Positions 18,225 through 39,954 of a DNA stretch of 64,000 nt are shown here, one piece after another; within the stretch, counting starts at the first letter, position 1; each line of letters opens with the position of its first letter. This DNA is from Acidimicrobiia bacterium (lineage in GTDB: Bacteria > Actinomycetota > Acidimicrobiia > Spongiisociales > ZC4RG35): contig OZ244034.1 of NCBI GenBank assembly GCA_965215185.1, positions 2,272,001-2,336,000 of the forward strand, written 5' to 3'. Below the pieces are notes generated by a model. It saw only the letters and a program-made list of their open reading frames with translations, made no database searches and had not been told where the DNA came from. A program made the translations under genes and the position numbers.

Positions 18225-18378
18225 ATTGTGTTGCTCCTCGTTTCCTGGGCCGGTGGTCCTCTGTGATTATGGCTAGGTTTGCTTGGCGCTGGTCCTGCAA
18301 ACCCTCGGTTACGACGGGGCGGCGCCTAAGCCGCGGTTACCATTCTCTTGCGTAGCAAACCCCACGGAGGAGTCTGTC

Positions 18379-19527: not shown

Positions 19528-19599
19528 AACCCGGCAAGGACCGCGGCTAGATTTGACTTCAATTGTGCGCAGCAACACACTGCAAACAGATATTTTGGG

Positions 19600-19751
19600 T
19601 GTCGACGCCTCTGATGGGTATGCTCCACGCCACCCCCCTCGACGAGGTCCGAACTATTCGCAACGCCACGGAACTGTCCGTCTTGGTGGGTAGCGGGCTC
19701 CACGGCGATAATGTCGCTCCGCATCATCTCTGAACCTATCGGTTCACTCAC
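19600..19751 (-). pseudogene. Possible CBS-domain gene remnant with internal deletion (boundaries approximate)
   Basis: SEMMRSDIIAVEPAT joined to DGQFRGVANSSDLV resembles the first and last elements of a CBS repeat with the middle helix missing. Confidence 0.3.
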
Positions 19752-19771
19752 TGACCCGAGACTATCGCACC

Positions 19772-20584: not shown

Positions 20585-20604
20585 TGCGCTTAGATGTGCG
20601 ACAC

Positions 20605-22014
20605 CTAGACGACGAATCCATCGGTAAAGAGGGGTGGGACCAGATTCCAGTTGGCCGCTTCGTGGTAGGCCTGTCCGATGCGGGCAATCTCGGTCTCCGC
20701 CAAAGGCCGACCCATGATCTGCAGGCCGATCGGTAGCCCTGACTCATCGAAACCGCATGGGACGGAAAGGGCAGGAAGGCCGGTCAGGTTGGCAGGAGCG
20801 GTGGTCCGCACGTAGGCGGGGTTAACCACCTCACTTGTTCCACCGTATTCAAAGTAAGCCTGGTCCTTGCGGGCCGCCACGGCAGGGAGAGTGGGCAGGA
20901 GCACCGCGTCAAGACGGTGCTCCTGAAAGGAGTTTCTCACCCCTCGTCGGATCATCTCCCGCCCGCGTAGGGCGGTCAAATAGTGCTCATTGGGCATCAT
21001 CAGCCCGGTAGCGAAGAGCGTCCTAATGGAAGGCTCGATCAGATGCGGCGCCGCCGCCATTAGCCGTTGGTGATAGGCGGCGCCCTCCGAGCGGACGAGG
21101 GCGAATTCCACTGGCATCACCATGTCCAGTTCCTTGATCTCCATCGGTACTACCTCGGCGCCCAAATCAGCGAGCACTCCCACGGCCTTCTCGAAGGCGT
21201 CGGACACCGAAGCCTGGATAAGCGGACCCCGGTAACGCTCGATCACCCCGAGCCTCACCCCTTTCAAGCCGTTTTCGGCAGACAGATAGCCATCTGGGGA
21301 GAATTCAGTCAGAGTGGTGGGATCGGAGGGATGGAAACCTGAAATAACCGACTGGACCAGAATGCAGTCGGCGGGAGTCGCCGCCAGCGGTCCGATGTGG
21401 TCGAGCGACCAACTGAGCGCCGCCACTCCACTGCGGGGAACCCTTCCATAGGTGCCCTTCAAGCCGGCTATCCCGCACAAAGCGGCGGGAATGCGGATCG
21501 AGCCGCCGGTGTCGCTCCCCAGCGCGGCCGCGGTAATTCCCGCCGACACCGCCGCTCCCGAGCCACCGCTGGACCCTCCCGGGATGCGGGTTATATCCCA
21601 GGGGTTGGAAGCGGGAGGAGATTCCACCCCGCAGGCCAACTCGTGAGTCACGGTCTTGCCCACAATCACCGCCCCGGCGGTGCGGAGGCGCTCCACCACC
21701 GGAGCGTCCCGCTCGGCGGGTGTATCGGGATAAGCGGGGGATCCACACAGAGTGGGATGCCCGGCCATGTCGATGATGTCCTTCACCCCCACCGGGATCC
21801 CGGCCAGCGGACCCGGGTCGATCCCTTGAGCGAACTGGCGGTCCACCCGGTCGGCCGCTTCGAGGGCTCCCCGGTGGTCGATGATTACAAAGGCCTGCAA
21901 CTGGGGATTGAGATCCTCGGCGGCGGCCAATGCGCGTTCGGTTATCTGCCGGGCGGAGACTTCTTTGGAGCGCAGCCGCCGGCCCAGGTGGGCGATCACC
22001 CCTTGGGAGTTCAT
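20605..22014 (-). CDS. Amidase-signature enzyme (AtzE/GatA-like)
   Basis: VGVKD, GGSSGGS and LGSDTGGSIRIPAA (Ser-cisSer-Lys triad). ATG 22014 overlaps the upstream stop (ATGA). Confidence 0.9.
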   Translation of the reverse strand: MNSQGVIAHLGRRLRSKEVSARQITERALAAAEDLNPQLQAFVIIDHRGALEAADRVDRQFAQGIDPGPLAGIPVGVKDIIDMAGHPTLCGSPAYPDTPAERDAPVVERLRTAGAVIVGKTVTHELACGVESPPASNPWDITRIPGGSSGGSGAAVSAGITAAALGSDTGGSIRIPAALCGIAGLKGTYGRVPRSGVAALSWSLDHIGPLAATPADCILVQSVISGFHPSDPTTLTEFSPDGYLSAENGLKGVRLGVIERYRGPLIQASVSDAFEKAVGVLADLGAEVVPMEIKELDMVMPVEFALVRSEGAAYHQRLMAAAPHLIEPSIRTLFATGLMMPNEHYLTALRGREMIRRGVRNSFQEHRLDAVLLPTLPAVAARKDQAYFEYGGTSEVVNPAYVRTTAPANLTGLPALSVPCGFDESGLPIGLQIMGRPLAETEIARIGQAYHEAANWNLVPPLFTDGFVV

Positions 22015-22196
22015 TGCCACCGCGGGTCGAATCTCAAGGCCGGTTCGTCGGTCTGGTCCAACTGGTCCCGCACCGAATCGATCTCGGCCCACTGCCCGGT
22101 CAGCATTTCCGCCAATTGGTCTGCATCCCAGTCATCAACCGTCAGTCCGGCTACGGTGAGCATGGTGCGGACCTCCTCAGGTCGGAAGGCGGTCAT
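22011..22196 (-). CDS. 61-aa acidic protein, probable AtzG/GatC-like amidase partner subunit
   Basis: MTAFRPEEVRTMLTVAGLTVDDWDADQLAEMLTGQWAEIDSVRDQLDQTDEPALRFDPRWQ. ATGA overlaps with both RidA and the amidase; C-terminal EPA..F motif. Confidence 0.72.
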   Translation of the reverse strand: MTAFRPEEVRTMLTVAGLTVDDWDADQLAEMLTGQWAEIDSVRDQLDQTDEPALRFDPRWQ

Positions 22197-22582
22197 TGGG
22201 GAATCACCGCGATCACATCCACTTCCAGTTTGAGGCCGGGGAGGCCCAGCGCCGCCGCTTGACAGGCGGTGACCGCCGGATAGGGACCACCACCGAACAC
22301 CCGGCGCCGCACCTCCATCTCCTCGGGGAGTTCCCGGATGTCCTGGCAGTAATAGGTGATCTTCACCACGTTCACCAGCGAGCCTCCGCACGCCTGCAGA
22401 ACCTCGGCGATGTTCTGCCAGATCTGCTCGGCCTGCTGACCGGTGGTCTCGCCCACGATCTCCCCGGCGGCGTTGAACGCCACCTGTCCGGCCAGATAAA
22501 CGGTGTCACCGGCCCGGACCGCGTAGGAATAGGGCTCGGGCGGTTCGCACATGCCCTCGGGATTGATCGCCTCAATTTTCAC
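22193..22582 (-). CDS. RidA/Rid-family (YjgF) protein
   Basis: PYSYAVRAGDTVYLAGQV, VVKITYY, YPAVT and KLEVDVIA. GTG start follows GAAGGAG. Confidence 0.87.
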   Translation of the reverse strand: MKIEAINPEGMCEPPEPYSYAVRAGDTVYLAGQVAFNAAGEIVGETTGQQAEQIWQNIAEVLQACGGSLVNVVKITYYCQDIRELPEEMEVRRRVFGGGPYPAVTACQAAALGLPGLKLEVDVIAVIPQ

Positions 22583-22627
22583 TTCGGACTCTCCTTCGTG
22601 CGAAAACGGGTGGGGTGTCGGCAATTC

Positions 22628-22939
22628 CTAAGAAGAAAGAATAAGCAATAATTCTTCCCTCAGTGTCAACGCAAGGACACGAGCCACTTGGCTTTCGCTC
22701 TCCAAGATTGCGGGAAGGTCGCGTTTCAAGACAGCGCTCATCGCCTTATCGATGTTGGCAGAGATCGGGATGTTCCACGCTTTGAAAAGTCGTGAGAAGA
22801 GATCGCTCAATACGCAATAAGCGACTTGGCCCGTCGCCCAGCAATACTCCTGACACCATTCCGCTAGATCATCAAGCTTGGCTGGAGGAAAGGATCGGAG
22901 TCCTCCCTCGGCTAGCCGCCGCAGTGAGGACCTATCCAA
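22628..22939 (-). CDS. Hypothetical 103-aa protein coupled to pyrE
   Basis: The ORF fills the gap and overlaps the pyrE stop by 8 bp; no recognised motif. Confidence 0.55.
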   Translation of the reverse strand: MDRSSLRRLAEGGLRSFPPAKLDDLAEWCQEYCWATGQVAYCVLSDLFSRLFKAWNIPISANIDKAMSAVLKRDLPAILESESQVARVLALTLREELLLILSS

Positions 22940-23519
22940 AGCAAACCGGCTCGATTCTCAGATCCTCGTAGGTTGCCATAGGAAAGTAGCTAACACCCAG
23001 GTTTTCGAATAGTGGACGAGCTGAATCACCTCGGTCTACAAGTGTCACCGCCGCTACAACTTCCGCGCCCGTTTCTTGAATGGCATCAAAAGCATTAATC
23101 ATCGACCCGCCCGATGTCACTACATCGTCGACTAGGAGCACTCTGTCGCCCCGACTGATCTGGGCACCTTCGATCCGGCGGCGCGTCCCACGTCCCTTGG
23201 GTTCCTTTCGCACAAGAAACCATTTGGTATCACTCACGGCAGCGACTCCGACAGCAAGGGCGTCAGCGCCTAGCGTCAGACCGCCAACCGCGTCGAAGTT
23301 GTGACCGGCGTTGGTGACGGCTTCAACAATTGCCAGCGACGCCAAACGGAGATCTTTCCATTCTGCAAGGGCCTCCTTGCCGTCGATGAAATGAGATGAC
23401 CACGCGCCCGACGCCAGCCTTATAGGCATCGGAAGGCTACGAAGACCCTTCTCGATCAATAAATCAACGAGCTGTTCTTGAAATGTCAGTGTAGATGGAT
23501 GCACGGGATCTCGATTCAC
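22932..23519 (-). CDS. pyrE: Orotate phosphoribosyltransferase
   Basis: LASGAWSSHFIDGK, VGGLTLGA, VRKEPKGRG, LLVDDVVTSGGS and LVDRG. Confidence 0.85.
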   Translation of the reverse strand: MNRDPVHPSTLTFQEQLVDLLIEKGLRSLPMPIRLASGAWSSHFIDGKEALAEWKDLRLASLAIVEAVTNAGHNFDAVGGLTLGADALAVGVAAVSDTKWFLVRKEPKGRGTRRRIEGAQISRGDRVLLVDDVVTSGGSMINAFDAIQETGAEVVAAVTLVDRGDSARPLFENLGVSYFPMATYEDLRIEPVCFG

Positions 23520-23583
23520 AAACTACATTCCTGTTATTTCAAGCCGGGTCGGGGGTATGTTGATAAGCGGCCATCTCAACAAT

Positions 23584-24675
23584 TCAGCCGGGAACAACCA
23601 CAGTGCGGATCGCCGAGCCGCTCTCCAGGTTCTCAAACCCTTTCTCCATGTCGGAAAGCGGAATGGTGTGCGTGACCATGCCGTCGAGATCGAGACTGCC
23701 CAATTGGTAGAGGGAATCCAGCACCGGAAAGTCCTGGGCTGGTATTCCTTCCCCACCGTGGGTGGTCATCAACGTCGAGGTGTTGCGGAAAAAGGCCGAG
23801 GGATTCAACTCGGCTCCGGTCCCCGGACCGGGCACGCCGATCAGGGTGGCGACGCCTCCATAGGCCAGCATCCCCAGAGCCTGCTCCAAAGTGACGCTCA
23901 TTCCCACCGCTTCGAAGGAGAAGTCCACTCCTTGCCCGCCGGTGATGGCCCGAACCGCCTCAACCGCATCCTCTTTGGCGGAGTTGACCGCATGGGTGGC
24001 CCCCATCGACAAAGCCCATTCGAGTTTGAGGTCGGAGATGTCCACCGCGATCACCTTGGAAGCGTTGGCCATCCGGGCTCCTTGCACGGTAGAGAGGCCG
24101 ATGCCTCCGCAGCCGATCACCGCCGTGGTGGCGCCCGGCCATACCTTGGCGGTGTGAAACACCGCGCCGGTTCCGGTCATAACCGCGCACCCCAGCAGTG
24201 AAGCCGAAGTCATCGGCATGCCATCACTCACCCGGAAAGCTGCCCCGGCGTCCACCCCGATCCGTTCGGCGTACATCCCCAAACCCATGGGGACCTCCAC
24301 CTTGGAACCGTCGGACGCCAGAGAAACCATCGGAGCGCGCGGCGAGGAGGAGTTACACCGTCGGGGATCGTTGCGTCGGCACATTGGGCATGTGCCACAG
24401 GGAACCCGGCAGCCCACCGCCACCCGGTCGCCTTCTTTCAGGCGAGTCACTCCGGGACCCACCTGCTCCACCACACCCGCTCCTTCGTGGCCGAGCAGCA
24501 TGGGATAGCGGGACTCCCGACTCGACTGCACTCCTTTTGATACCTTGTAGTCGGTGCGGCACACTCCGGCTGCTTCCACCCGGAGTAACACCTCCCCCTC
24601 CCGAGGAGGGCCGATCTCAATCTCAGCGATCTCGACCCGCCCCGGCGCCATCACCAAGGCCGCTCTGCTACGCAT
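23584..24675 (-). CDS. Zn-dependent alcohol dehydrogenase (class III/MscR-like)
   Basis: GVCRTD, GHEGAG, structural Zn CGTCPMC..C, LLGCAVMTG and GCGGIG. Confidence 0.9.
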   Translation of the reverse strand: MRSRAALVMAPGRVEIAEIEIGPPREGEVLLRVEAAGVCRTDYKVSKGVQSSRESRYPMLLGHEGAGVVEQVGPGVTRLKEGDRVAVGCRVPCGTCPMCRRNDPRRCNSSSPRAPMVSLASDGSKVEVPMGLGMYAERIGVDAGAAFRVSDGMPMTSASLLGCAVMTGTGAVFHTAKVWPGATTAVIGCGGIGLSTVQGARMANASKVIAVDISDLKLEWALSMGATHAVNSAKEDAVEAVRAITGGQGVDFSFEAVGMSVTLEQALGMLAYGGVATLIGVPGPGTGAELNPSAFFRNTSTLMTTHGGEGIPAQDFPVLDSLYQLGSLDLDGMVTHTIPLSDMEKGFENLESGSAIRTVVVPG

Positions 24676-25834
24676 TGAGATCAACCAGAATGTCTTCCTC
24701 GTAGGTGAGCCTCTCTCCGCCGTCCGGCGTCACCCGCACGTTGTCGGAGACGCAAATGCCTCCCACCGCCAAGGCTTCGGCCGGATCATCGAATGCGATC
24801 TGCGGATGAAGGTTGATCACCATGTCGGTTTGCATAATCCGCTCCTTGCCCGGCACCCAGGGCGGCTCATGGGAGTCAAGCCCGATGCCGTGAGCAGTGT
24901 AGGCCACTGAGTCGAGACCACCCTGACCGTACTTGCGGTGCACCCGGTCACGGGCGACCAGCACGTCGTCGGAGGAAGCGCCGGTCTTCATGGCCTCGAC
25001 GCAGGCGTTCAAGGTCTCGATCCGGGTGTCCCAAAAACGCAAGATCTGATCGGATGGACGCCCGAAGCAATAGGTCCTGCGTACTTCCACCCAGTATCCC
25101 GATGGCCCTCCCCATTCCAGATCGATGCAGAGGACATCGTCCTTGTCGATCTCGGCGTCCATTCCGAAGGTGTAGGCCCGGTAAGGGGGACGGCTCATCT
25201 GGGCGATCCCGTCCAGGCATCCATACTGGCGGCAGAGACGATGAGCCTCGGCCAGCACATCCCGCTCGATCGCCCCGGGGCGAATGTGGCCCTCGAGACT
25301 GGTGAACACCTGGGCGATGATCCGAGAGGTCTCCCGGAGGTTGTCCATCTCCTCGGCGCTCTTGATTGAACGGATGTCATCGAAGAAATCGGTGGCGTCA
25401 ATCAGGGTGGCAGTACGACCGAACGCCTCCTGGAAAGCCATGTAGTGAGCGGCGGAGGTTATGTCGGCCAGCCCCACAATTCCGATAGTGCCATGGGAGA
25501 TTCCGTGGTCGGACAGGATCCCGGCTAACTCGGCAGCCGGAGTTTGTGTGGCCCGAAAGTCCTGGATCCAGTTGACCAGCGCCACTCTCGACAGGCCCCA
25601 CAACGGATCGCCGATGAAGGTGGGCTCACCTTTTAGGGGAAGCAGCACCATCCCCCACCCGGCCCATTGGAAGATGTCGGACACGTACTGGACGCGGCCC
25701 CGCACGAATTCGTCGCCGCGGCTACAGATGAGCAACGCGTCGATGCCCGCTTCGGCCATGGCCTCGCGAAGCACTCGATGACGGCGCTCCCGCTCGGCGG
25801 GAGAGGAAATGTGGGTCAGTTTGCCTTCAGCCAT
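24668..25834 (-). CDS. M24 pita-bread-fold hydrolase (creatinase/Xaa-Pro-like) with non-canonical metal site; paralog 1
   Basis: Creatinase-N domain, RSIKSAEE, IDLEWGGPSGYWVEVRRT, AHGIGLDSHEPP, NLHP and VSDNV. ATG 25834 follows AAGGAG. Confidence 0.82.
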   Translation of the reverse strand: MAEGKLTHISSPAERERRHRVLREAMAEAGIDALLICSRGDEFVRGRVQYVSDIFQWAGWGMVLLPLKGEPTFIGDPLWGLSRVALVNWIQDFRATQTPAAELAGILSDHGISHGTIGIVGLADITSAAHYMAFQEAFGRTATLIDATDFFDDIRSIKSAEEMDNLRETSRIIAQVFTSLEGHIRPGAIERDVLAEAHRLCRQYGCLDGIAQMSRPPYRAYTFGMDAEIDKDDVLCIDLEWGGPSGYWVEVRRTYCFGRPSDQILRFWDTRIETLNACVEAMKTGASSDDVLVARDRVHRKYGQGGLDSVAYTAHGIGLDSHEPPWVPGKERIMQTDMVINLHPQIAFDDPAEALAVGGICVSDNVRVTPDGGERLTYEEDILVDLNA

Positions 25835-25848
25835 AGTTTGAAACTCCT

Positions 25849-26577
25849 TTAGCTGGTGGGGGTCGGTACGGAGGCCGGGCGGTGTGAGGACAGAGCTTGA
25901 GGATTCTCCAACTCTGCACAGATCTCGTTGGTGGTGCGGGAGGCGATGAAGCCCCCGTCGGTCATTCTGACCAAGGCGTTGTCGTGAAGTTCCTTGGTGG
26001 AGGAGGTACAGGCGTCGTTCACTAGCGAGACCGTATACCCGCGGTCGGCCGCGTCGCGAGCGGAGAGCTCCACGCACCCTTCAGTGACGATGCCGGTAAG
26101 GACCACGTGAGTTATACCCATGCGCTTTAGCACGCTATCGATAGCAGTGGAATTGAAGACGCTGGCGGAGGTCTTGGAGAAGATCATCTCGTCGCCCTGC
26201 TCCCCCACTTCCGGAAGAAGAAGGTCGTCGCGGTCGTCGCGGGGTACCGGCTCAAGGTCTGCGTCAGGCATGAAGGCCTTCCCCGCATCTCGCCCGTTGC
26301 TAGTGCGATAGGCCACCCGGACATGGATCACTTCCTCACCCGCCGCCCGGAAAGCGTCCTGGCATCTTCTGACGTTGGGCAGGATGGCGATGATGTTATC
26401 CCATCGCTCCTCCATGATCTCGGGCTGGCCAGCAGCTTGGGCGATCCGGCCTATCCAACCATCGGCATGAGCATCCAGATACTGCAAATCGATGGTTAGC
26501 AGCGCCGTCTTTCCCGGAGCGATGGAAGGAAACACCGGGCGGGGAAATAGATCGTAAAAGGGGTCGTGCAAGTTCAA
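25849..26577 (-). CDS. Isochorismatase-like cysteine hydrolase
   Basis: ALLTIDLQ, KTSASVFNST and TGIVTEGCVELSARDAADRGY (D-K-C triad). Confidence 0.88.
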   Translation of the reverse strand: MNLHDPFYDLFPRPVFPSIAPGKTALLTIDLQYLDAHADGWIGRIAQAAGQPEIMEERWDNIIAILPNVRRCQDAFRAAGEEVIHVRVAYRTSNGRDAGKAFMPDADLEPVPRDDRDDLLLPEVGEQGDEMIFSKTSASVFNSTAIDSVLKRMGITHVVLTGIVTEGCVELSARDAADRGYTVSLVNDACTSSTKELHDNALVRMTDGGFIASRTTNEICAELENPQALSSHRPASVPTPTS

Positions 26578-26771
26578 AGTATTCTCGCCTTCCTGCAAAG
26601 TAGCCGGTTCGTGTAAAAAGAAGGTTGTTGGCGCAACAGCACCACCTCCGGTTTGCACTAAGTATATTTAGCAGGGATCCGGACCATCCGCGGCCCCACA
26701 GGGCCACCAAAATCCGGTGAAAGTTAAAAAAACCTGAGCATCGGCGCAGGAGAAGGGAAGATCAAGACGAG

Positions 26772-27704: not shown

Positions 27705-27770
27705 TCGCCCCTCAAACCTCTTGATTCGAACAACATCAAACAACCACGAAACCTCAGATATGGAGTCTCA

Positions 27771-28967
27771 ATGAGCCACAGCACACTGCGAACCGCGCTG
27801 GCGGAGCGCACCCTGCGAATTCGCGGCGGACACGAATCCCCCTACTTCCAGATCATACGGAAGGTACAAGGGCGTGACGACATCATCCGTTTGGTGAGAG
27901 GAGAGCCGGATATCCCGACCCCCTCCCACATAATCGAAGCCGCCAAGCGCTGTCTGGACACAGGGCATGTCGGATATACCCCTCCCGGCGGGATGATCGA
28001 GTTGCGGGAAGCCATTGCCCGCAAATTCAAAAAGGACAACAACCTTGAATACGACGCCGAGTCCGAGATACTGGTCACCGCCGGCGCCCAGGAGTCGATG
28101 GCGGTAAGTCTCCAGACTCTTGTGGATCCGGGGGATGAGGTTCTTCTGGCCACCCCTCATTACATGGCCTACCCGGCCAACATCATCATGGCCGGTGGGA
28201 AGATCGTCTATGTGCCCACCGTGGAGGAAGAGGACTTCGAGTTGAAGCCCGAAGCTATCGAAGCCGCCATCACCGACCGCACCAAGCTATTGGTGCTGGT
28301 CACCCCCAACAACCCCACCGCCGGAGTGATAACCGCCGAGACCTTGGAGGCTATTGCCGAGGTGGTGCGGGCCCATCCGGGTCTAGTGGTGATATCGGAC
28401 GAACTGTACGAGAAGGTGGTGTACGACGGCTTCGAGCACGTCAGCTTTGCCACCCTGCCAGGGATGTGGGACCGGACCATAACGATCAACGGGTTTTCCA
28501 AGGCCTACAGCATGACCGGATTCCGCGTTGGTTACATGGCCGGGCCGGCCGACTACATCCTGGCCGCCACCGAGCCGCGCCATTCGCTCAGCATCTCCAC
28601 CTCGCTTCCCTCCCAGCATGGAGCGCTGGCTGCCCTAGAGGGACCTCAGGACTTCCTGGCCGAGATGATGGAGGAGTACCACCAGCGCCGGGCCGTGATG
28701 AGAGCGACTTTCGATGAGTTGGGCGTTACCTACGGCGAGCCCAAGGGCGGGTTCTACTTCTTCGCCAACATCTCGGGATCAGGCATGGACGCCGTTTCTT
28801 TCGCCGAAAAGGCGGTTGATTACGGAATCCTCTTCTCGCCCGGCAACATCTTCGCCGAGGGCGCGGTCAAGTACATCCGCATCTCCTACCTGGCGCCCCG
28901 AGATCAACTGCACGAGGCCATGGACCGCTTCACGCGCCTTTGGAACGACTGCCGGAGCGGCAAGTGA
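27771..28967 (+). CDS. Class I/II PLP aminotransferase (aspartate aminotransferase-like)
   Basis: GEPDIPTP, PNNPTA, SDELY and NGFSKAYSMTGFRVGY. Confidence 0.92.
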   Translation: MSHSTLRTALAERTLRIRGGHESPYFQIIRKVQGRDDIIRLVRGEPDIPTPSHIIEAAKRCLDTGHVGYTPPGGMIELREAIARKFKKDNNLEYDAESEILVTAGAQESMAVSLQTLVDPGDEVLLATPHYMAYPANIIMAGGKIVYVPTVEEEDFELKPEAIEAAITDRTKLLVLVTPNNPTAGVITAETLEAIAEVVRAHPGLVVISDELYEKVVYDGFEHVSFATLPGMWDRTITINGFSKAYSMTGFRVGYMAGPADYILAATEPRHSLSISTSLPSQHGALAALEGPQDFLAEMMEEYHQRRAVMRATFDELGVTYGEPKGGFYFFANISGSGMDAVSFAEKAVDYGILFSPGNIFAEGAVKYIRISYLAPRDQLHEAMDRFTRLWNDCRSGK

Positions 28968-29941
28968 GCGGCCCGGCGGTAGCCCTGGTCGAAGAGTTCT
29001 CGCCCGCCCACGTGGCGGCCCTTCGCAATGCCCTCCCCGACGGCGCCACGGTGCTTACCGACGCCGTCGGTTCGGGGACCATCGGACAGGCCGACTACCT
29101 GGTGCTCCGGCAGGAGAGCCTCGACGACGAACAGTTGAACGCCCTCTCCTCCCTCCGGGGAGTGGTCACCATCGACTCGGGGGGCGCCACTGTCTCCCCG
29201 CAGATCTGCGACTCCCTGGGAGTGTGGACCGAAGTCGTCCTGTCTCCCGGGCCAACCAGCGTGGCCGAGCACGCCGTAATGATGATCCTGGCGCTCTTCA
29301 AACGCCTTCCCACTGCTCACCGACGTCTCATGGACGGGGTGATAGTTGAAGGCATGGCGCCGTTCATAACCGATCAAGTGAACTACTCCTACAACTGGGT
29401 GGGCCTGGAGATATTCGAGGCTGTGTTGGGTAAGACAGTGGGGTTGGTCGGTGTCGGCCAGATCGGACGCGTGGCGGCCAAGCTCCTGGTGGCGTTCGGG
29501 GTGGATGTCGTCTACACCAAGCGCAACCGCTTCACTGCAGAAGAGGAGCAGGAGTTGGGCATCCGCTACCTTCCCTTCGAGGAACTCCTGGCCGAGTCGC
29601 ACTGTGTCTCGCTCCATAACCGGTTCACGCCGGAGACCGAGAAGATGATGGGCCCCCGAGAGTTCGCCATGATGCCCCGCGGCTCGTTCTTCGTCAATAC
29701 CGCTCGTGGGCGGTTGGTAGACGAGGACGCCCTGATGGCCGCCCTGCACAGCGGGCATCTGGCGGGCGCCGCACTGGATGTCTTCTGGTGGGAGCCCATC
29801 CTTCCGGACAGTCCTCTCCGGAACACCCCCAACCTCCTGATGACCCCCCATACCGCGGGGACACCCGCCGGCGACACAGTGGCCCTGGAAATGGGCTCCG
29901 CCGGAAGAATCATCCGCCGACGAAATGGAGCGACGAGATGA
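28964..29941 (+). CDS. D-2-hydroxyacid dehydrogenase family
   Basis: SVAEHA, GLVGVGQIG, NTARG, DVFWWEP and TPHTAG. GTGA overlap with the upstream stop. Confidence 0.9.
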   Translation: MSGPAVALVEEFSPAHVAALRNALPDGATVLTDAVGSGTIGQADYLVLRQESLDDEQLNALSSLRGVVTIDSGGATVSPQICDSLGVWTEVVLSPGPTSVAEHAVMMILALFKRLPTAHRRLMDGVIVEGMAPFITDQVNYSYNWVGLEIFEAVLGKTVGLVGVGQIGRVAAKLLVAFGVDVVYTKRNRFTAEEEQELGIRYLPFEELLAESHCVSLHNRFTPETEKMMGPREFAMMPRGSFFVNTARGRLVDEDALMAALHSGHLAGAALDVFWWEPILPDSPLRNTPNLLMTPHTAGTPAGDTVALEMGSAGRIIRRRNGATR

Positions 29942-31320
29942 GCGAACAGACCTTTGTCGGCATGCAGGTGGGAGGGATCAGTTTCATCGACGAGGGCATC
30001 GAGGAAACTCTCGACACCTTCGTGGAACTGGCAGGGGTGAACGCCATTTTCATCTCGGCCCTCTCATGGGCGCGGGGTAACGCCGGGCGCTCCGGCAGCG
30101 GCGACTACCCCGACCACGGCGGGCAGGAACCCGACAACCTGCAGGGCGGGGCTTTCTTCCCGCCCAATCCCAAGTACTACCACGGCACGTCCATCAAGGA
30201 CTTCACCGCCCCCGATCCCCTCTATGAGGGCTGGGACATCCTGGGCGACGTGATTCCCGCCGCCCGGGAAAGAGGCATGGAAGTCTTTCCCTACTACTGC
30301 GAGACCGCCCACGTCAATCCCAAGGCGCTCTGGCAACCGGGTTTCGCCCAGGTGCTGGAGATTGACCCGTGGGGCCGAAAGGCCAGCCGTCCATGTCTTT
30401 ACAACCCCGACTACCGGAACTGGTGGTTCGGGGTGATCGACAACTGGCTGAGCGAGTACGACCTGAGCGGGATGCTGTGGGGAATCGAGCGGGAAGACCC
30501 TCTGTCCTCGATGATCGTCAGCAACGAAGTACCCACGTGCTTCTGCGCCCACTGCCGCTCGGAAGCCCACCGCCGCAACATCGACGCCGGGCGGGCGGCC
30601 GAGGGGTATCGGAAGATCAGCGATTACCTCAGCGCAGTACGGGCTGGCTACCAGCCTCGCGACGGGAAGCTGATCACATTCCTGCGGCATCTGTTCGAGT
30701 ACCCCGAGGTCTCGCAGTGGCAGAAGCTGTGGTGGGACGGTCACAAGGATCTCTACCGGGAAATCTCCGGCCTGATCCGCTACTTCGGCGACGACTACCA
30801 GGTGGGCTTAGGCATCTGGCAGATGATCAATACCTTCAATCCGCTGCTGCGAGCGGCCCACGATCCCGCCGAGTACAAGCTGTACGCCGACTGGCTGAAG
30901 CCGGTGTTCTACAACGCACCGGGTGGCGCACGGTTCGCCAAATTCGTGACCAACCTGTGCCAGACCATCCTGGGCGATGCCAGTCCCGCAGAGTGGACAC
31001 CGATCCTCTACAAGATTCTCGGCCTGGACGAGGCGCCCTTCGAGGACCTGCCTCCCACCGGTTTCAGCCCCAAATATGTCGCCGATTTCACCCGCCGCTA
31101 CGTAGAAGCGGTGGGACCCGAGGTGGCTGTCTATCCCGGCATCGGGCTGGGAGTGGAGACTGTGGCCCGAGACATCTCTCCCGCCGACTGTGAGGCTATG
31201 GTCGAAGCCTCTTTCGAAGGCGGCGCCGAAGGTGTGATGATCTCTCGCAATTATTCGGAATTGACCCTCCCCAACTTGGCCGCGGTGGGAACCGCCCTAC
31301 GCCGCCTCGGAAAAATCTGA
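29938..31320 (+). CDS. Uncharacterised protein, probable glycoside-hydrolase-like TIM barrel
   Basis: ATGA-coupled in the operon. GMQVGGISFIDEG, PDHG, CLYNPDYR..W...YDLSG, CFCAHC and VYPGIG..GAEGVMISRNY resemble GHL10/DUF187-like barrels. Confidence 0.6.
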   Translation: MSEQTFVGMQVGGISFIDEGIEETLDTFVELAGVNAIFISALSWARGNAGRSGSGDYPDHGGQEPDNLQGGAFFPPNPKYYHGTSIKDFTAPDPLYEGWDILGDVIPAARERGMEVFPYYCETAHVNPKALWQPGFAQVLEIDPWGRKASRPCLYNPDYRNWWFGVIDNWLSEYDLSGMLWGIEREDPLSSMIVSNEVPTCFCAHCRSEAHRRNIDAGRAAEGYRKISDYLSAVRAGYQPRDGKLITFLRHLFEYPEVSQWQKLWWDGHKDLYREISGLIRYFGDDYQVGLGIWQMINTFNPLLRAAHDPAEYKLYADWLKPVFYNAPGGARFAKFVTNLCQTILGDASPAEWTPILYKILGLDEAPFEDLPPTGFSPKYVADFTRRYVEAVGPEVAVYPGIGLGVETVARDISPADCEAMVEASFEGGAEGVMISRNYSELTLPNLAAVGTALRRLGKI

Positions 31321-31328
31321 TCCGCAAC

Positions 31329-32591
31329 ATGAAAGGAACACAACCTGTGCGCACAATTCTCAAAGGCGGCGTCGTCGTAAATCTGGACGGCGGGCCCTCG
31401 GAGCAACAAGACCTGGTCATCGAAGGCGAGCAGATCGTCTCGGTAGGAGCAGTGCAAGCCCAGGCGGGCGACAACGTGGTGGATGTATCCGGCATGTACC
31501 TGCTGCCTGGACTGGTGAACTGCCACGTCCATCTGGGGTGGGATGGAACCCACGACCTGGAGGATCAGGCCAACGAATCACCGGCAGTTAATGCAATGAA
31601 GGCGGTGATGAACATCCACCGCACCCTGTCGGCCGGGGTCACCACCATTCGTGACCTGGGCATGAACAACGCCAACATCGACGCCAAGACCGCCATCGAC
31701 AACGGCTGGGCGCCGTGGATTCGCCTGTTCCCCAACGGACGCGCCATCTGCACCACCGGCGGGCACACCTGGTGGTGCTGCCGGGAAGCCGACGGGATCT
31801 ACGGAGTGCGCAAGGCCATCCGGGAGCAGTTCAAGGCTGGCGCCCAGTGGATCAAGATCATGGGATCGCACGAAGAAGTGCAGTTCACCACGGACGAATT
31901 GCGCGCCATGTGCGAAGAGGCCCACCAGAACGGGATGAAGGTCACCGCCCACGCCACTTTCGATGAAGCCATCTCGAGAGTAGTGGACGCCGGAGTGGAC
32001 TGCGTGGAGCACGGTGGGTCGATGACGCCGGAGACCATTCAGAAGATGGTGGACAAAGGCATTCCCATCGTCACCACCTTCTCGCCCTTGGTGCAGCAGG
32101 TCAAATTCGGCTTGGACTTCGGGATGACCGTCTCCGATGTGGAGCGGCGCAAGGATCAAATGGCCGACACGTCTCGGTTCGCCGGCAATGCGGCCGCCGC
32201 CCGGGCAGGAATTCCCATCGTGTTCGGCACCGACGCCGGCAGCCCGGTGGTCCCCCACTACGCCATCGCCGAGGAACTCAAGTTCATGGTGGAAATCGAC
32301 GTGTGCAAAGACAACCTGGACGCGCTCAACTCCATCACTCGCCGGGGCATCAAGCTCCTGGGTCTCGAAGACCAACTGGGCAGCCTGGAAGTGGGCAAGA
32401 CCGCTGACGTGGTGGCCGTTGGAGGCGATCCCTTGGCTTCTTTGGACCACATGAAGGACGTCAAGCGGGTCCTCGTGCGAGGACACATGGCGTTTTCCTC
32501 CGAAGGCGGCTACACCCAAACCGGTCGGGACGTCGAAGGCATTGGTACCCGTTGGGGACCCGGCCCTGACATCGGCTACCGGCGGGCCTAA
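31329..32591 (+). CDS. Metal-dependent amidohydrolase (Xaa-Pro dipeptidase/carboxypeptidase-like subtype)
   Basis: PGLVNCHVHL, GVTTIRDLG, IKIM, AHA, EHG and GTDAG. Confidence 0.88.
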   Translation: MKGTQPVRTILKGGVVVNLDGGPSEQQDLVIEGEQIVSVGAVQAQAGDNVVDVSGMYLLPGLVNCHVHLGWDGTHDLEDQANESPAVNAMKAVMNIHRTLSAGVTTIRDLGMNNANIDAKTAIDNGWAPWIRLFPNGRAICTTGGHTWWCCREADGIYGVRKAIREQFKAGAQWIKIMGSHEEVQFTTDELRAMCEEAHQNGMKVTAHATFDEAISRVVDAGVDCVEHGGSMTPETIQKMVDKGIPIVTTFSPLVQQVKFGLDFGMTVSDVERRKDQMADTSRFAGNAAAARAGIPIVFGTDAGSPVVPHYAIAEELKFMVEIDVCKDNLDALNSITRRGIKLLGLEDQLGSLEVGKTADVVAVGGDPLASLDHMKDVKRVLVRGHMAFSSEGGYTQTGRDVEGIGTRWGPGPDIGYRRA

Positions 32592-32629
32592 GAGACTGTT
32601 CGGACAAAGAGACGATCTAGAAGCAATAC

Positions 32630-34018
32630 ATGCTTGATCTGAGAATCGTCGGGGGCACGGTGGTGAGCGACGGACACTCCCGGCCGGCTGATGTCGGCGT
32701 GGAAAGCCAGCTCATCACCGAAGTCTCCCCTCCTGGCGGCCTCGGGGCGGCGCGGCGGGAGATCGACGCAACCGGATTGCTGGTGATTCCCGGCGCGGTG
32801 GACGCTCACTTTCACTGCCGGGCGCCCAGCCATCCTGAGCGGGCCACCTTCGCTTCCGAGTCGCGCGCGGCAGCTTCTTCGGGTATCACCACCCTGTTCG
32901 AAATGCCGATCTCCAACCCGCCCTGCAGCACCCCCGAGGCGTTCCAAGCCCGGCGGCAGTTGGGAGAGGCCGAGAGCCTGGTGGACTTCGCCCTCTATTC
33001 GGGTGCGGGTTTCACCGATCCGGCCCGGGCAGAGGCGATGGCCGAGTGCGGAGCGATCGGATTCAAGCTGTTCACCCACCAGCCCCCGGCCGAACGGCTG
33101 AACGAATTCGAGGGTTTGTGGGCGTCGGAGCCTGATCAGATCTACGACTGCCTGCGCACGGTAGCCGCCACCGGTCTTCGCTGCGCGACGCATGCCGAGA
33201 GCCAGCATCTCATCGAGCGTTTCCGGGTTGATCAGGACCGCTTCGGCCATCCCTCCCGGCCCTCATTGGTAGAGGCCGCGGCGGTGGGACTGGTGGCCAC
33301 AATTGCCCGGGACATCGGCTTTCCCGCCCATATCGTCCACATCACCTCCCGGTTGGCCACCGAAGAGGTCCAGGCCGCCCAGGCGTTGGGAGTGGACCTC
33401 TCCGCTGAGTCCTGCCCGCACTATCTGCTGTTGGACGATTCCCACATTCCCCGTTTCGGCAACTTCGTGAAAGTGGCTCCGCCTCTGCGCCCCGCCGAAG
33501 ATGTAGCTTTCCTGTGGGAGGCGCTGACCGACGGGTCGCTGTCGGTGGTGGCCTCCGATCACGCTCCCTTCACCCCCGAAGAGAAAGCGTCCGCCGATTT
33601 CGCTACCTCCGGGCAGGGAATCCCTTCCCTTGAGATGCTGGTGCCGGCCATGATCGACGCCGGTTTGACCGGGCGATTCCCCCTGGCTCGGGCGGTGGAG
33701 GTGATGACCGCCAACCCGGCCAAACTTTTCGGCATTTATCCTCGCAAGGGAACGATCTCACCCGGATCCGACGCCGACCTGGTACTGGTGGATCCCGACG
33801 GAAGGCTGACTGTTGATTCGGCCCGGTTCCTGAGCCGATCAGGCGGAAGCGGAAAAGCCTATGACGGAATGGACTTGACGGGTCGGGTAATCACCACCCT
33901 CTCCCGAGGCCGGACAGTTTTCAGCAACGGCAAGGTCATAGGAAACTCGGGTGGAAGTTTTGTCTCTCCAGCCGGTCCGCCCCTTCATGTGACAGAGACC
34001 CAAACCTCCTCGGTTTAG
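32630..34018 (+). CDS. Cyclic amidohydrolase (allantoinase/dihydroorotase family)
   Basis: PGAVDAHFH, GITTLFEMP, FKLF, HAE, HIVHIT, ESCPHYL, ASDHAP and NPAKLFG. Confidence 0.88.
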   Translation: MLDLRIVGGTVVSDGHSRPADVGVESQLITEVSPPGGLGAARREIDATGLLVIPGAVDAHFHCRAPSHPERATFASESRAAASSGITTLFEMPISNPPCSTPEAFQARRQLGEAESLVDFALYSGAGFTDPARAEAMAECGAIGFKLFTHQPPAERLNEFEGLWASEPDQIYDCLRTVAATGLRCATHAESQHLIERFRVDQDRFGHPSRPSLVEAAAVGLVATIARDIGFPAHIVHITSRLATEEVQAAQALGVDLSAESCPHYLLLDDSHIPRFGNFVKVAPPLRPAEDVAFLWEALTDGSLSVVASDHAPFTPEEKASADFATSGQGIPSLEMLVPAMIDAGLTGRFPLARAVEVMTANPAKLFGIYPRKGTISPGSDADLVLVDPDGRLTVDSARFLSRSGGSGKAYDGMDLTGRVITTLSRGRTVFSNGKVIGNSGGSFVSPAGPPLHVTETQTSSV

Positions 34019-34138
34019 GGTCCGCATCCACTTGGCCCCGGGGCGGTTCGGACCAATCCTTTCACACACCGTTGTCTAGCGTTGGATAGGCAGTTAGTCG
34101 ACAGGCACCAAACACCTGTTCACGGCGCACTCCACCAT

Positions 34139-35896: not shown

Positions 35897-35918
35897 CGAA
35901 GACTTCCCGTCTCGCACG

Positions 35919-39129: not shown

Positions 39130-39138
39130 GTGTTCTGC

Positions 39139-39888: not shown

Positions 39889-39954
39889 AACAGGAAAGGG
39901 TTGGGGTCGTGGTTGGGTAAAGCGGTGTGGTATGTCTCATGATTCTTTCGGGTT

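What the first reader, a model, noticed from the sequence alone, without database searches (positions are those of the whole stretch)
20605..34018. Divergent 13-kb catabolic cluster for an unknown nitrogen-rich compound
Seen: two divergent runs of closely spaced, partly ATGA-coupled genes. Leftward: isochorismatase, atypical M24, Zn-ADH, [pyrE insert], RidA, small subunit, amidase. Rightward: epimerase, aminotransferase, 2-hydroxyacid dehydrogenase, GH-like barrel, amidohydrolase, cyclic amidohydrolase. That is five amide/C-N hydrolases from four different folds plus sugar-type enzymes. Known: isochorismatase, Rid and amidase-signature enzymes recur in the Rut, Atz/biuret and Hpx ring-degradation routes. 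I recognise no described pathway with this combination. Inference: breakdown of a modified nucleoside or a glycosylated N-heterocycle.
Basis: partly seen in the sequence, partly recalled or inferred. Interest (0 to 1): 0.7.

Follow-up and report, generated by a model that had tools for sequence, protein, structure and literature searches.

The report
Conserved glycoconjugate-breakdown gene island, substrate unknown
A sponge-associated actinobacterium carries a conserved block of genes that most likely breaks down a small sugar-linked, nitrogen-containing nutrient, built around an enzyme family that nobody has yet characterised; the nutrient itself cannot be named from sequence alone.

Summary
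None of the 20 proteins scanned reaches a curated NCBIfam cut-off, so nothing maps to a named pathway.

The 'GH-like barrel' is a real TIM-barrel glycosidase-like protein (pLDDT 88; Z 24.5 to Cwp19, 24.3 to PgaB). It belongs to an unnamed family of 1,553 representative clusters.

Six genes (SDR epimerase, aminotransferase, 2-hydroxyacid dehydrogenase, GH-like, two amidohydrolases) stand together in 30 of 32 related loci. They share one phyletic pattern with isochorismatase, amidase and DegT: 18 of 41 relatives. A Dormibacterota locus holds seven of the families.

In 36-38 of 49 other loci, mainly Chloroflexota, GH-like sits with a GntR regulator, a peptide/opine-type ABC importer, sugar oxidoreductases and the aminotransferase.

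The left run is a mosaic. PRT/orf103 is an insertion. RidA-microprotein-amidase is linked only within this lineage.

Best reading (0.4): catabolism of a glycosylated amino acid or short peptide.

The parts
18283..19527 (+). DegT/DnrJ/EryC1-type (sugar) aminotransferase; left edge of the conserved unit
   Evidence: Pfam PF01041, E 6e-102. Orthologues are in the same 18 of 41 relatives, 10-16 kb from GH-like on the same contig. In L021 it directly follows the Zn-ADH; L040 holds a 53% homologue.
19772..20584 (-). 270-aa membrane protein, function unknown; last gene of the minus run
   Evidence: No Pfam family. Weak BPSS1780-family hit, 23.6 bits against a cut-off of 90. Homologues at 56-61% in L009 and L034.
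20605..22014 (-). Amidase-signature amidase (accessory module)
   Evidence: PF01425, E 1.6e-107. Best NCBIfam hits are indoleacetamide hydrolase (316.6 bits) and AtzE family (313.5 bits), both below their cut-offs. The start overlaps the small ORF's stop in ATGA.
22011..22196 (-). 61-aa microprotein, translationally coupled on both sides; candidate small partner of the amidase
   Evidence: 61 aa in 15 of 15 related loci, with 14 invariant columns. No Pfam or NCBIfam family. A profile search found 50 relatives, all close and all unnamed. No similarity to the genome's own GatC.
22193..22624 (-). RidA/YjgF-family protein
   Evidence: PF01042, E 3.6e-26. TIGR00004 at 72.5 bits, below the 106 cut-off.
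22628..22939 (-). orf103, lineage-specific ORF inside the insertion
   Evidence: No family. GC3 0.56. Found in 2 of 32 related loci.
22932..23519 (-). Orotate-PRTase-like phosphoribosyltransferase, second copy; inserted gene
   Evidence: PF00156. TIGR00336 at 98.9-99.0 bits, below the 106.8 cut-off, while another genomic copy scores 109.8. GC3 0.53.
23584..24684 (-). Zn-dependent alcohol dehydrogenase
   Evidence: PF00107 and PF08240. Travels with M24 and isochorismatase in L017, L021 and L022.
24668..25834 (-). Atypical M24 (creatinase/prolidase fold) hydrolase
   Evidence: PF00557 and PF01321. Ligand substitutions seen in the alignment to 1pv9. A 57% paralogue lies at 41205-42443.
25849..26577 (-). 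Isochorismatase-family cysteine hydrolase
   Evidence: PF00857. Nearest solved structures are cysteine and biuret hydrolases. A 57% homologue lies in Dormibacterota L040 in the same gene array as GH-like.
26578..26771 (.). Divergent intergenic region (presumed promoters)
   Evidence: Read. Its limits follow from the revised isochorismatase start.
26772..27704 (+). Extended-SDR epimerase/dehydratase-family protein
   Evidence: PF01370, E 3.7e-37. Best solved relative is UDP-glucose 4-epimerase 7ys8.
27771..28967 (+). Class I (aspartate/aromatic type) aminotransferase
   Evidence: PF00155, E 1.4e-65. Nearest solved: 1gd9 and 1dju. Homologues at 38-45% lie beside GH-like in 32 of 49 loci L040-L088.
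28964..29941 (+). D-isomer-specific 2-hydroxyacid dehydrogenase
   Evidence: PF02826. GTGA overlap with the aminotransferase and ATGA overlap with GH-like. Also directly upstream of GH-like in L040.
29938..31320 (+). GH-like TIM-barrel protein of an unnamed family; the signature gene of the island
   Evidence: No Pfam or NCBIfam family. AF2 pLDDT 88, pTM 0.89. Z 24.5 to Cwp19, 24.3 to PgaB, 22.9 to 6tvk, 21.0 to GH42 4ucf. 14 of 43 family members touch GHL6 and 11 of 43 touch GHL10.
31329..32591 (+). COG1228-type metal amidohydrolase (prolidase / carboxypeptidase / ochratoxinase relatives)
   Evidence: PF01979. Solved relatives include 3feq/3n2c (prolidase), 3be7 and 3mtw (arginine carboxypeptidases) and 4c5y (ochratoxinase).
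32630..34018 (+). Cyclic amidohydrolase (allantoinase/hydantoinase/dihydroorotase group)
   Evidence: TIGR03178 at 314.4 bits, below the 357.85 cut-off. Nearest solved: allantoinase 3hm7 and L-hydantoinase 1gkr.
34082..35896 (+). 5'-nucleotidase-like protein with LysM domain; variable neighbour, membership uncertain
   Evidence: PF02872 and LysM. Follows the block in 7 of 32 related loci; an adenosine-deaminase-family gene takes this place in 8.

Best explanation
The core of the region is one catabolic gene set for a small imported glycoconjugate. The core comprises DegT, Zn-ADH, M24 and isochorismatase on one side, and SDR epimerase, aminotransferase, 2-hydroxyacid dehydrogenase, GH-like, COG1228 amidohydrolase and cyclic amidohydrolase on the other. 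The non-sugar part of the substrate is most likely an amino acid or a short, possibly N-blocked, peptide.

Proposed order of steps (all inferred):
1. Uptake. Relatives use an Opp/Dpp-type ABC system. This genome has no transporter in the cluster.
2. Trimming of amide-linked residues by the four amide hydrolases.
3. Cleavage of the sugar-aglycone bond by the cytoplasmic GH-like barrel, with the family-invariant Glu184 at the end of strand 4 as catalytic acid.
4. Transamination of the released amino acid, and redox conversion of the resulting 2-oxo/2-hydroxy acid, by the two enzymes translationally coupled to GH-like.
5. Oxidation, epimerisation and, if it is an amino sugar, deamination of the sugar. 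The enzymes would be the SDR, Zn-ADH, DegT and a GFO/MocA oxidoreductase that in this genome lies 104 kb away.

RidA-microprotein-amidase and PRT/orf103 are later additions to the locus, not part of the conserved pathway.
For: Shown:
- The six-gene plus-strand block is complete in 30 of 32 Spongiisociaceae-type loci. The other two are cut by contig ends.
- GH-like, cyclic amidohydrolase, isochorismatase, amidase and DegT orthologues occur in the same 18 of 41 relatives: 16 of 16 of the other genomes of the genus, G000 itself and one genome of another family.
- In L021 eleven genes stand in one co-directional array: SDR, AT, 2HADH, GH-like, amidohydrolase, cyclic amidohydrolase, GFO, isochorismatase, M24, Zn-ADH, DegT.
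- Dormibacterota L040 holds homologues of seven of them at 43-63% identity, beside a GntR regulator.
- Among 49 loci L040-L088, GH-like (47) stands with GntR (38), SDR epimerase (36), two GFO/MocA oxidoreductases (38, 36), an SBP5 binding protein (36), two permeases (38, 37) and the class I aminotransferase (32) (annotation).
- Where hydrolases are added there, they are M20, M14 and M24 together with the two amidohydrolases.
- GH-like has a glycosidase fold. Distant secreted family members sit beside TonB/SusC-type receptors, GH127 and GH31.
- AT, 2HADH and GH-like overlap by 4 nt at each junction.
- The catalytic motifs of the hydrolases read as intact in the translations (the motifs are recalled).
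- RNA-library contigs of a close strain cover 29 of 30 and 27 of 30 bins. One contig spans GH-like, amidohydrolase and the start of the cyclic amidohydrolase.
Against: - No substrate is shown and no protein has a characterised close relative.
- The cyclic amidohydrolase and the isochorismatase are nearest to enzymes of cyclic ureides and of biuret, not to peptidases.
- The aminotransferase is a generic aspartate/aromatic type.
- The hydroxyproline context in Granulicella first suggested a glyco-amino-acid role. It is kept in only 3-4 of 78 loci of that subfamily.
- Nucleoside-related genes flank the block in 15 of 32 related loci.
- GH-like has no conserved carboxylate on strand 7, where clan GH-A enzymes carry their nucleophile, so even hydrolytic glycosidase chemistry is not certain.
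- The relatives counted are kin, one genus plus one outlier, so the shared phyletic pattern is weak evidence on its own.
- The RNA-library contigs may include DNA.
Confidence: 0.4

Rival explanations
1. The substrate is a sugar-linked cyclic ureide or a modified nucleoside, for example a dihydropyrimidine or hydantoin-type nucleoside from RNA turnover. The steps would be:
1. The cyclic amidohydrolase opens the ring.
2. The isochorismatase-type hydrolase removes the carbamoyl group.
3. GH-like releases the sugar.
4. The aminotransferase and the dehydrogenases consume the amino-acid product.
For: - The cyclic amidohydrolase scores highest with allantoinase (314.4 bits) and is nearest to allantoinase 3hm7 and L-hydantoinase 1gkr.
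- The isochorismatase is nearest to biuret hydrolase, RutB and N-carbamoylsarcosine amidase relatives.
- Both are kept in the Dormibacterota locus.
- The gene after the block is of the adenosine-deaminase family in 8 of 32 related loci and a 5'-nucleotidase in 7.
- A PRTase is inserted in the left run.
- A nucleoside-type ABC importer with xanthine-dehydrogenase-type and CN-hydrolase genes lies at 1435-13387 of the window.
- In L081 an ATP-dependent hydantoinase pair (HyuA/HyuB) and an M24 gene stand next to the GntR-GH-like array.
Against: - 36-38 of the 49 loci L040-L088 (mainly Chloroflexota) keep GH-like with the importer, oxidoreductases and aminotransferase. Only 9 have the cyclic amidohydrolase, and the isochorismatase family appears in only 3, two of them the Dormibacterota loci L040/L041.
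- Their importer is of the peptide/opine/nickel type, not the nucleoside type.
- No known N-ribosidase family is present, and the GH-like fold matches O-glycosidases.
- The nucleoside-related neighbours vary and are not seen in the other phyla.
- The PRTase has foreign composition.
Confidence: 0.2
2. There is no single pathway. The region is a syntenic patchwork of several small, unrelated catabolic modules, held together by descent within one genus. The modules would be a glycoside module, an amidohydrolase pair, an isochorismatase-M24-ADH triad and a RidA-amidase module.
For: - The isochorismatase-M24-ADH triad moves as a block. It is adjacent and divergent in 15 of 32 loci, downstream in 4, and replaced by a paralogous M24 in 9.
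- RidA-small ORF-amidase and the PRT are clearly separable.
- In G033 the block, the isochorismatase plus DegT, and a 55% amidase lie on three contigs.
- The identical phyletic pattern rests on one genus plus one genome.
- Most Chloroflexota loci lack the amide hydrolases.
Against: - Homologues of seven families (43-63% identity) are again side by side in Dormibacterota L040, beside a GntR regulator.
- The two amidohydrolases recur next to GH-like in 8-9 loci, in different gene orders.
- When the triad moves, it stays within 10 kb of the block and, in L021, in the same orientation.
- GH-like and the first amidohydrolase are 8 nt apart.
Confidence: 0.25
3. The genes are biosynthetic. They would make or tailor an amino-sugar-containing metabolite (SDR dehydratase plus DegT aminotransferase logic) rather than degrade one.
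For: The SDR epimerase/dehydratase family, DegT and GFO/MocA enzymes are the standard kit for making amino-deoxy sugars (established knowledge). The best NCBIfam hits of DegT and the SDR are to such enzymes, all below cut-off.
Against: - No nucleotidyltransferase, glycosyltransferase, ligase or exporter lies in the array.
- Five hydrolases and a glycosidase-like protein dominate it.
- Relatives pair it with a GntR/FCD regulator and an ABC importer, the usual signature of catabolic operons.
Confidence: 0.05

Closest known systems
GH42 beta-galactosidases, GH151/GHL6 alpha-L-fucosidases, and the GHL10 (Cwp19) and GH153 (PgaB C-terminal) barrels
   Same: - (beta/alpha)8 barrel. Z 24.5 to Cwp19, 24.3 to PgaB and 22.9 to 6tvk (which I recall as GH151), and 19.5-21.0 to GH42.
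- Weak GHL6 or GHL10 Pfam hits in 14 and 11 of 43 family members.
- An invariant Glu at the end of strand 4.
- Four near-invariant cysteines (C153, C201, C203, C206; a C-x-C-x-x-C motif), reminiscent of the structural zinc site I recall in Thermus GH42.
- A soil alpha-L-fucosidase, Mfuc3, is reported with a GHL6 hit (PMC4723247; passage read).
   Different: - The window protein itself matches no Pfam or NCBIfam model. Sequence identity to the solved structures is 8-16%.
- No conserved carboxylate on strand 7.
- No trimerisation or other extra domain.
- This subfamily is cytoplasmic, with no N-terminal extension. Many distant members carry 40-55 extra N-terminal residues.
Hydantoin-utilisation (hyu) and allantoin pathways: cyclic amidohydrolase plus carbamoylase
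   Same: - A dihydroorotase/hydantoinase-type enzyme with the full metal-site motifs (translation; motifs recalled). It is nearest to allantoinase and to Arthrobacter L-hydantoinase.
- In Chloroflexota relatives it sits next to an M20 deacylase, like HyuH with HyuC or AllB with AllC (pairing recalled).
   Different: - Below the allantoinase cut-off: 314.4 against 357.85.
- No racemase, permease or M20 gene here.
- Embedded among glycoside-type genes.
AtzE-AtzG (1-carboxybiuret hydrolase with a GatC-like small subunit) and GatCA
   Same: An amidase-signature enzyme is preceded by a tiny translationally coupled ORF. AtzE-family models are among the best hits.
   Different: - AtzE scores are below cut-off: 313.5 against 461 and 302.3 against 425.75.
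- The 61-aa protein matches no GatC or other family and shows no profile similarity to the genome's own GatC.
- Binding could not be tested.
- No AtzD, AtzF or AtzH.
Creatinine/creatine degradation enzymes (creatinase, N-carbamoylsarcosine amidase, N-methylhydantoinase)
   Same: Creatinase_N plus an M24 fold with altered metal ligands. An isochorismatase-family hydrolase related to 1nba. L081 adds HyuA/HyuB.
   Different: All similarities are at family level only. No sarcosine oxidase lies in the cluster. The set is tied to a glycosidase-like gene.
Opine / Amadori-compound and glycopeptide catabolic loci (GntR, Opp/Dpp-type ABC, GFO/MocA oxidoreductases, aminotransferase)
   Same: The gene logic of the Chloroflexota version is a GntR/FCD regulator, an SBP5 importer related to NikA, AccA and AgaA, sugar oxidoreductases and an amino-acid aminotransferase.
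   Different: No deglycase, amadoriase or opine oxidase family is present. The signature enzyme is an unclassified GH-like barrel.

Membership tests
Clan GH-A retaining glycosidases (e.g. GH42) | (beta/alpha)8 barrel fold | tested here: met
   AF2 model pLDDT 88. Z 19.5-21.0 to GH42 chains, with 313-327 residues aligned.
Clan GH-A retaining glycosidases (e.g. GH42) | Acid/base Glu at the end of strand 4 | tested here: met
   Glu184 follows strand 178-183. It is invariant in 19 close and 43 diverse members. The role of this position is recalled.
Clan GH-A retaining glycosidases (e.g. GH42) | Nucleophile Glu at the end of strand 7 | tested here: not met
   Strand 7 (about 399-405) has only conserved Tyr and Gly. 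No carboxylate there is conserved in A1 or A4.
Pfam GHL6 (PF14871) / GHL10 (PF02638) | Match to the family HMM above the gathering score | tested here: not met
   The window protein has no hit even at E up to 5. 14 and 11 of 43 relatives have weak hits, best E about 1e-6.
Allantoinase (AllB) / hydantoinase group | Score above the curated equivalog cut-off | tested here: not met
   TIGR03178 at 314.4 against 357.85. D-hydantoinase at 255.3 against 393.25.
Allantoinase (AllB) / hydantoinase group | Binuclear-metal motifs (HxH, carboxylated Lys, two His, Asp) | tested here: met
   All are readable in the translation of 32630-34018. The positions were judged against recalled motifs, not against a structure.
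AtzE-AtzG type heteromeric amidase | AtzE-family score above cut-off | tested here: not met
   NF006631 at 313.5 against 461. TIGR02715 at 302.3 against 425.75.
AtzE-AtzG type heteromeric amidase | Small GatC-like partner that binds the amidase | not testable with these tools
   A coupled 61-aa ORF exists. It has no GatC similarity.
M24 metallopeptidases (prolidase type) | Five conserved metal ligands (Asp, Asp, His, Glu, Glu) | tested here: not met
   In the alignment to 1pv9, Asp and His are kept, Asp becomes Glu, Glu becomes His and Glu becomes Ser. The ligand numbering is recalled.
Rut, Atz/biuret and Hpx ring-degradation pathways | Presence of the pathway's named equivalogs (RutB/RutC, BiuH, AtzE) | tested here: not met
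   RutB 51.6 against 378. RutC 32.8 against 169. BiuH 71.7 against 370. No other pathway member lies in the region.
Isochorismatase-family cysteine hydrolases | Pfam domain and Asp-Lys-Cys triad | tested here: met
   PF00857 at 114.3 bits. The triad residues are readable in the translation (motif recalled).

The most novel reading that the evidence does not exclude
The GH-like protein founds a new glycoside hydrolase family. Its cytoplasmic members would cleave a sugar directly from an amino acid or hydroxy-acid aglycone, a linkage ordinary glycosidases leave untouched. Candidates are galactosyl-hydroxylysine from collagen, O-glycosyl-serine/threonine, or glycosyl-glycerate. The enzyme would be hard-wired by translational coupling to the aminotransferase and dehydrogenase that consume the aglycone. 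In sponge symbionts this would be a dedicated route for feeding on host matrix glycopeptides. Equally unexcluded is a first catabolic route for ureide-type modified nucleosides.
Probability: 0.15. Interest if true: 0.8.

Novelty: new variant of a known kind. Interest (0 to 1): 0.5.

Why it matters
The region gives a concrete, testable handle on an uncharacterised enzyme family. That family has 1,553 representative clusters at E up to 0.001 and 279 at E up to 1e-30. It has no Pfam model of its own and occurs in at least six phyla, by the record titles and taxonomy lines.

The gene set around it is conserved from sponge symbionts to Dormibacterota and Chloroflexota MAGs. It points to a common but unrecognised small nutrient in which a sugar is joined to a nitrogen-containing part.

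Finding the substrate would add a CAZy-type family and a pathway to the annotation of many uncultured bacteria. It would also show what these sponge-associated Acidimicrobiia take from their host or neighbours.

Tried and rejected
- **Hydroxyproline-glycopeptide lead.** The Granulicella plasmid homologue sits inside a hydroxyproline-catabolism operon. Among 78 metagenome loci of that subfamily, only L095, L096, L099 and L101 keep any of those genes. The other neighbours vary. I dropped this as a general rule.
- **GatC/AtzG identity of the 61-aa ORF.** No Pfam or NCBIfam hit at E up to 5. hhalign against the genome's own GatC gave probability 0.3. A profile search found only 50 close, unnamed relatives.
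- **Complex prediction of amidase with the microprotein.** The queue was full each time, then the tool was declared unavailable. Nothing was folded, so no verdict.
- **Sequence search of the GH-like profile against solved structures.** Only a chance-level hit, E 0.054.
- **Earlier scan notes.** Nothing on this place, sequence or word set. The genome-wide list held nothing relevant.
- **Literature.**
  - 'Spongiisocius': 0 papers.
  - 'DUF4438': 0 papers.
  - Acidimicrobiia + sponge + symbiont + creatinine: 0 papers.
  - GHL6/PF14871: 12 papers, one relevant passage read.
  - Galactosylhydroxylysine terms: 124 papers. Among the 15 listed titles and abstract starts I saw no bacterial hydrolase (listing only).
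- **Reaching Acidobacteriota and Bacteroidota genomes through plasmid loci.** These get W handles without relatives.
- **Pattern search with diverse alignments A5 and A6.** A single protein was used instead.
- **RNA contigs.** Parts without cover in X19 and X20 (1 and 3 of 30 bins) say nothing.

Full report
**What is there.** The window is G000:C1:2272001-2336000 of a 3.1-Mb single-contig genome. The closest public loci carry titles of sponge-associated Acidimicrobiia, Candidatus Spongiisocius and Spongiisociaceae.

- Minus strand: amidase 20605-22014, a 61-codon ORF 22011-22196, RidA 22193-22624, orf103 22628-22939, a PRTase 22932-23519, Zn-ADH 23584-24684, an M24/creatinase-fold protein 24668-25834, and isochorismatase 25849-26577.
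- Plus strand: SDR epimerase 26772-27704, class I aminotransferase 27771-28967, 2-hydroxyacid dehydrogenase 28964-29941, a 460-aa protein without any family 29938-31320, a COG1228-type amidohydrolase 31329-32591, and a cyclic amidohydrolase 32630-34018.

The junctions RidA/small ORF, small ORF/amidase and 2HADH/GH-like are ATGA overlaps. AT/2HADH is a GTGA overlap. GH-like and the next gene are 8 nt apart.

None of the 20 proteins scanned reaches the curated NCBIfam cut-off of any model. The nearest misses are the cyclic amidohydrolase (allantoinase, 314.4 against 357.85) and the PRTase (pyrE, 99.0 against 106.8).

**The barrel protein.** An AlphaFold2 model from a 19-sequence alignment has mean pLDDT 88 and pTM 0.89 and shows eight strand-helix units.

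An all-against-representatives structural search gives these matches:
- Cwp19: Z 24.5, 312 residues aligned, rmsd 3.5.
- PgaB glycoside hydrolase domain: Z 24.3.
- Fucosidase 6tvk: Z 22.9.
- GH42: Z 19.5-21.0.
- GH164, GH18 and GH20 follow.

Foldseek agrees.

The family is large and unnamed. A profile search of 1.84 billion representatives finds 1,553 proteins at E up to 0.001, 820 at 1e-10 and 279 at 1e-30. All names given by sources among the best 120 word-index hits are 'hypothetical protein'. The ESM Atlas neighbours are unnamed, except one cluster in which 20% of members carry GHL10.

Of 43 diverse members, 14 touch Pfam GHL6 and 11 touch GHL10 weakly. The window protein touches none.

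Across those 43, Gly178, Glu184 and Gly432 are invariant. Asp143, Asp318, Tyr325, Arg332, Arg437 and four cysteines (153, 201, 203, 206) are nearly so. Glu184 ends strand 4, the acid/base place of clan GH-A. Strand 7 has no conserved carboxylate, so the canonical retaining pair is not present (the roles of these positions are recalled).

Its chemistry is open.

**Do the genes belong together?**

*Within the lineage.* Among 32 Spongiisociaceae-type loci (L009-L039 and L042), all six plus-strand genes are found in 30. The two exceptions are cut by contig ends.

The isochorismatase-M24(-ADH) triad varies in position:
- adjacent and divergent, as in the window, in 15 loci;
- 5-9 kb downstream on the same strand in 4 (L017, L019, L021, L022);
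- replaced upstream, in 9, by a 56-58% M24 paralogue. This paralogue is the orthologue (88%) of the window's second M24 at 41205-42443.

In L021 eleven genes form one co-directional array that ends in Zn-ADH and DegT and includes a GFO/MocA oxidoreductase. The 79% orthologue of that oxidoreductase lies 104 kb from the window's start in G000.

GH-like, cyclic amidohydrolase, isochorismatase, amidase and DegT orthologues are found in the same 18 of 41 relatives. These are G000, all 16 other genomes of its genus, and G033 of another family. They were not found in the 23 others at the thresholds used. These genomes are kin, so the pattern counts as roughly two observations.

*Outside the lineage.* GH-like is rare in the phylum: 2 of 401 sampled Actinomycetota, one of them frameshifted. 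This suggests acquisition by transfer.

*Other phyla.*
- Dormibacterota L040 carries, in order: amidohydrolase, isochorismatase, epimerase, GFO, 2HADH, GH-like, amidohydrolase, GFO, cyclic amidohydrolase, GntR, DegT and the aminotransferase. Identity to the window proteins is 43-63% for seven of them.
- Clustering the neighbours in 49 loci L040-L088 (mainly Chloroflexota, plus two Dormibacterota loci, one Propionibacteriaceae locus and one Spongiisociaceae-type locus, L042) gave this recurrent order. One arm reads GntR/FCD (38 loci), SDR epimerase (36), GFO (38), SBP5 (36), two permeases (38, 37), GH-like (47), GFO (36), class I aminotransferase (32) and SDR (23). The divergent arm reads two DUF4438 genes (32), a glyoxalase-fold gene (20) and an Ldh_2 dehydrogenase (19).
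- Only some loci add the cyclic amidohydrolase (9), the COG1228 amidohydrolase (8), M20 (6 and 6), M14 (5) and M24 (5).
- A Propionibacteriaceae locus has a full Opp-type transporter, GH-like, a class V aminotransferase and GntR.

**What the parts say.**
- The aminotransferase is nearest to aspartate/aromatic aminotransferases 1gd9 and 1dju.
- The COG1228 enzyme is nearest to prolidases, arginine carboxypeptidases and ochratoxinase-type amide hydrolases.
- The M24 protein aligns to prolidases but keeps only two of five metal ligands unchanged.
- The cyclic amidohydrolase is nearest to allantoinase 3hm7 and L-hydantoinase 1gkr.
- The isochorismatase is nearest to biuret, triuret-type and other cysteine hydrolases.
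- The GFO enzymes of relatives are nearest to inositol 2-dehydrogenase, levoglucosan dehydrogenase and glycoside 3-dehydrogenase, all far below cut-off.
- The SBP5 protein is nearest to NikA, peptide and opine binders.
- Two unrelated families known to include ketimine reductases appear near GH-like in two phyla: Ldh_2 in Chloroflexota and an ornithine-cyclodeaminase-family protein in L040. This is a weak hint of a diamino- or imino-acid intermediate.

**Wider family context.**
- A Granulicella plasmid homologue (32.5% identity) lies inside a hydroxyproline-catabolism operon between a PPIase and aminopeptidase P.
- Two tandem homologues in Parabacteroides lie in a SusC/SusD locus with glycerate kinase.
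- The hydroxyproline link does not generalise. Only 3-4 of 78 metagenome loci of that subfamily keep it. Otherwise the neighbours are TonB-type receptors (9 of 76), lactate permease (8), GH127 (8), DUF5695 (7), GH31 (6) and LarA (5).
- These contexts fit a true glycan-active enzyme family with varied specificity.

**The left run is a mosaic.**
- PRT and orf103 have GC3 of 0.53 and 0.56, against 0.72-0.80 around them.
- The PRT is present in 10, and orf103 in 2, of the 15 loci with the adjacent left run.
- The genome has another pyrE-type gene above the cut-off.
- RidA-small ORF-amidase accompanies the block only in those 15 loci. It was not seen near GH-like in other phyla.
- The 61-aa ORF is real: constant length and 14 invariant columns in 16 sequences. 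Its role as an amidase subunit rests on position alone. It has no family, no similarity to GatC and only 50 close relatives.

**Expression.** Two metatranscriptome libraries from one study hold contigs of a closely related strain, mostly 95-99% alike. They cover 29 and 27 of 30 bins of 18000-36500. One 1,905-base contig runs from GH-like through the amidohydrolase into the cyclic amidohydrolase. Contigs cannot show strand, level or a single transcript, and DNA carry-over is possible.

**Interpretation.** The best-supported reading (0.4) is a catabolic set for a small glycoconjugate whose aglycone is an amino acid or short peptide.
- The importer type, the constant aminotransferase, the translational coupling AT-2HADH-GH-like and the peptidase-family add-ons point that way.
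An adenosine-deaminase-family gene follows the block in 8 of 32 loci and a 5'-nucleotidase in 7.
- A patchwork without a common substrate remains possible (0.25).

Every step of the mechanism is inferred. What is shown is the gene content, the fold, the coupling and the co-occurrence.

**Novelty.** I searched for Spongiisocius, DUF4438, GHL6/PF14871 and Acidimicrobiia sponge creatinine. I found no description of this cluster or of a characterised close member of the family. It is a new variant of a familiar kind of system, a substrate-specific catabolic island, centred on an unclassified glycosidase-like family.

Noticed in passing
window 1435-13387: A separate cluster. It holds an amidohydrolase, a xanthine-dehydrogenase-type molybdoenzyme, two CN-hydrolases, an HTH_22 regulator and a nucleoside-type ABC importer (a Bmp/PnrA binding protein of 666 aa, two permeases, a double ATPase). 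It looks like purine/pyrimidine uptake and breakdown, about 7 kb from the finding.
   Followed up: no
window 36087-42443: A corrinoid methyl-transfer set: a pterin-binding methyltransferase, a RACo-type activase, a B12-binding protein and a URO-D-family methyltransferase. Next to it lies a second atypical M24/creatinase-fold gene (41205-42443), 57% identical to the cluster's M24. In nine related loci this second M24 sits directly upstream of the six-gene block.
   Followed up: partly
window 16178-16846 and 16938-18224: Another phosphoribosyltransferase gene, and a PaaK-like phenylacetate-CoA ligase (457.9 bits, below the 646 cut-off). The ligase is divergent from the DegT gene, 58 bp away.
   Followed up: no
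G004:C2:1007020-1008396: One relative carries a second copy of the GH-like gene, broken into four pieces in different frames, about 13 kb from its intact copy. G421, the only other positive among 401 Actinomycetota, also has a frameshifted copy.
   Followed up: no
relatives G001, G002, G003, G009, G011-G014, G016: DegT is duplicated in tandem in nine of the 16 same-genus relatives: a second copy at 76-78% identity within about 2 kb.
   Followed up: no
loci L076, L073, L074 (Chloroflexota): Two tandem DUF4438 genes are conserved divergently from the GntR-GH-like operon in 32 of 49 loci. A full-text search for DUF4438 found no paper. This is an uncharacterised family tightly linked to the same system.
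   Followed up: partly
window 48811-54116: Three luciferase-like monooxygenase genes stand with an acyl-CoA ligase, an Fe-ADH, an enoyl-CoA hydratase and glyoxalase-fold genes. This is another unassigned catabolic set.
   Followed up: no
window 60186-62130: Two IS-type transposase genes (rve integrase core with HTH_21) lie near the window's end.
   Followed up: no
L014:14002-15555 and seven other loci: An adenosine-deaminase-family protein of 517 aa, with about 170 extra N-terminal residues, follows the cyclic amidohydrolase on the same strand in 8 of 32 related loci.
   Followed up: partly
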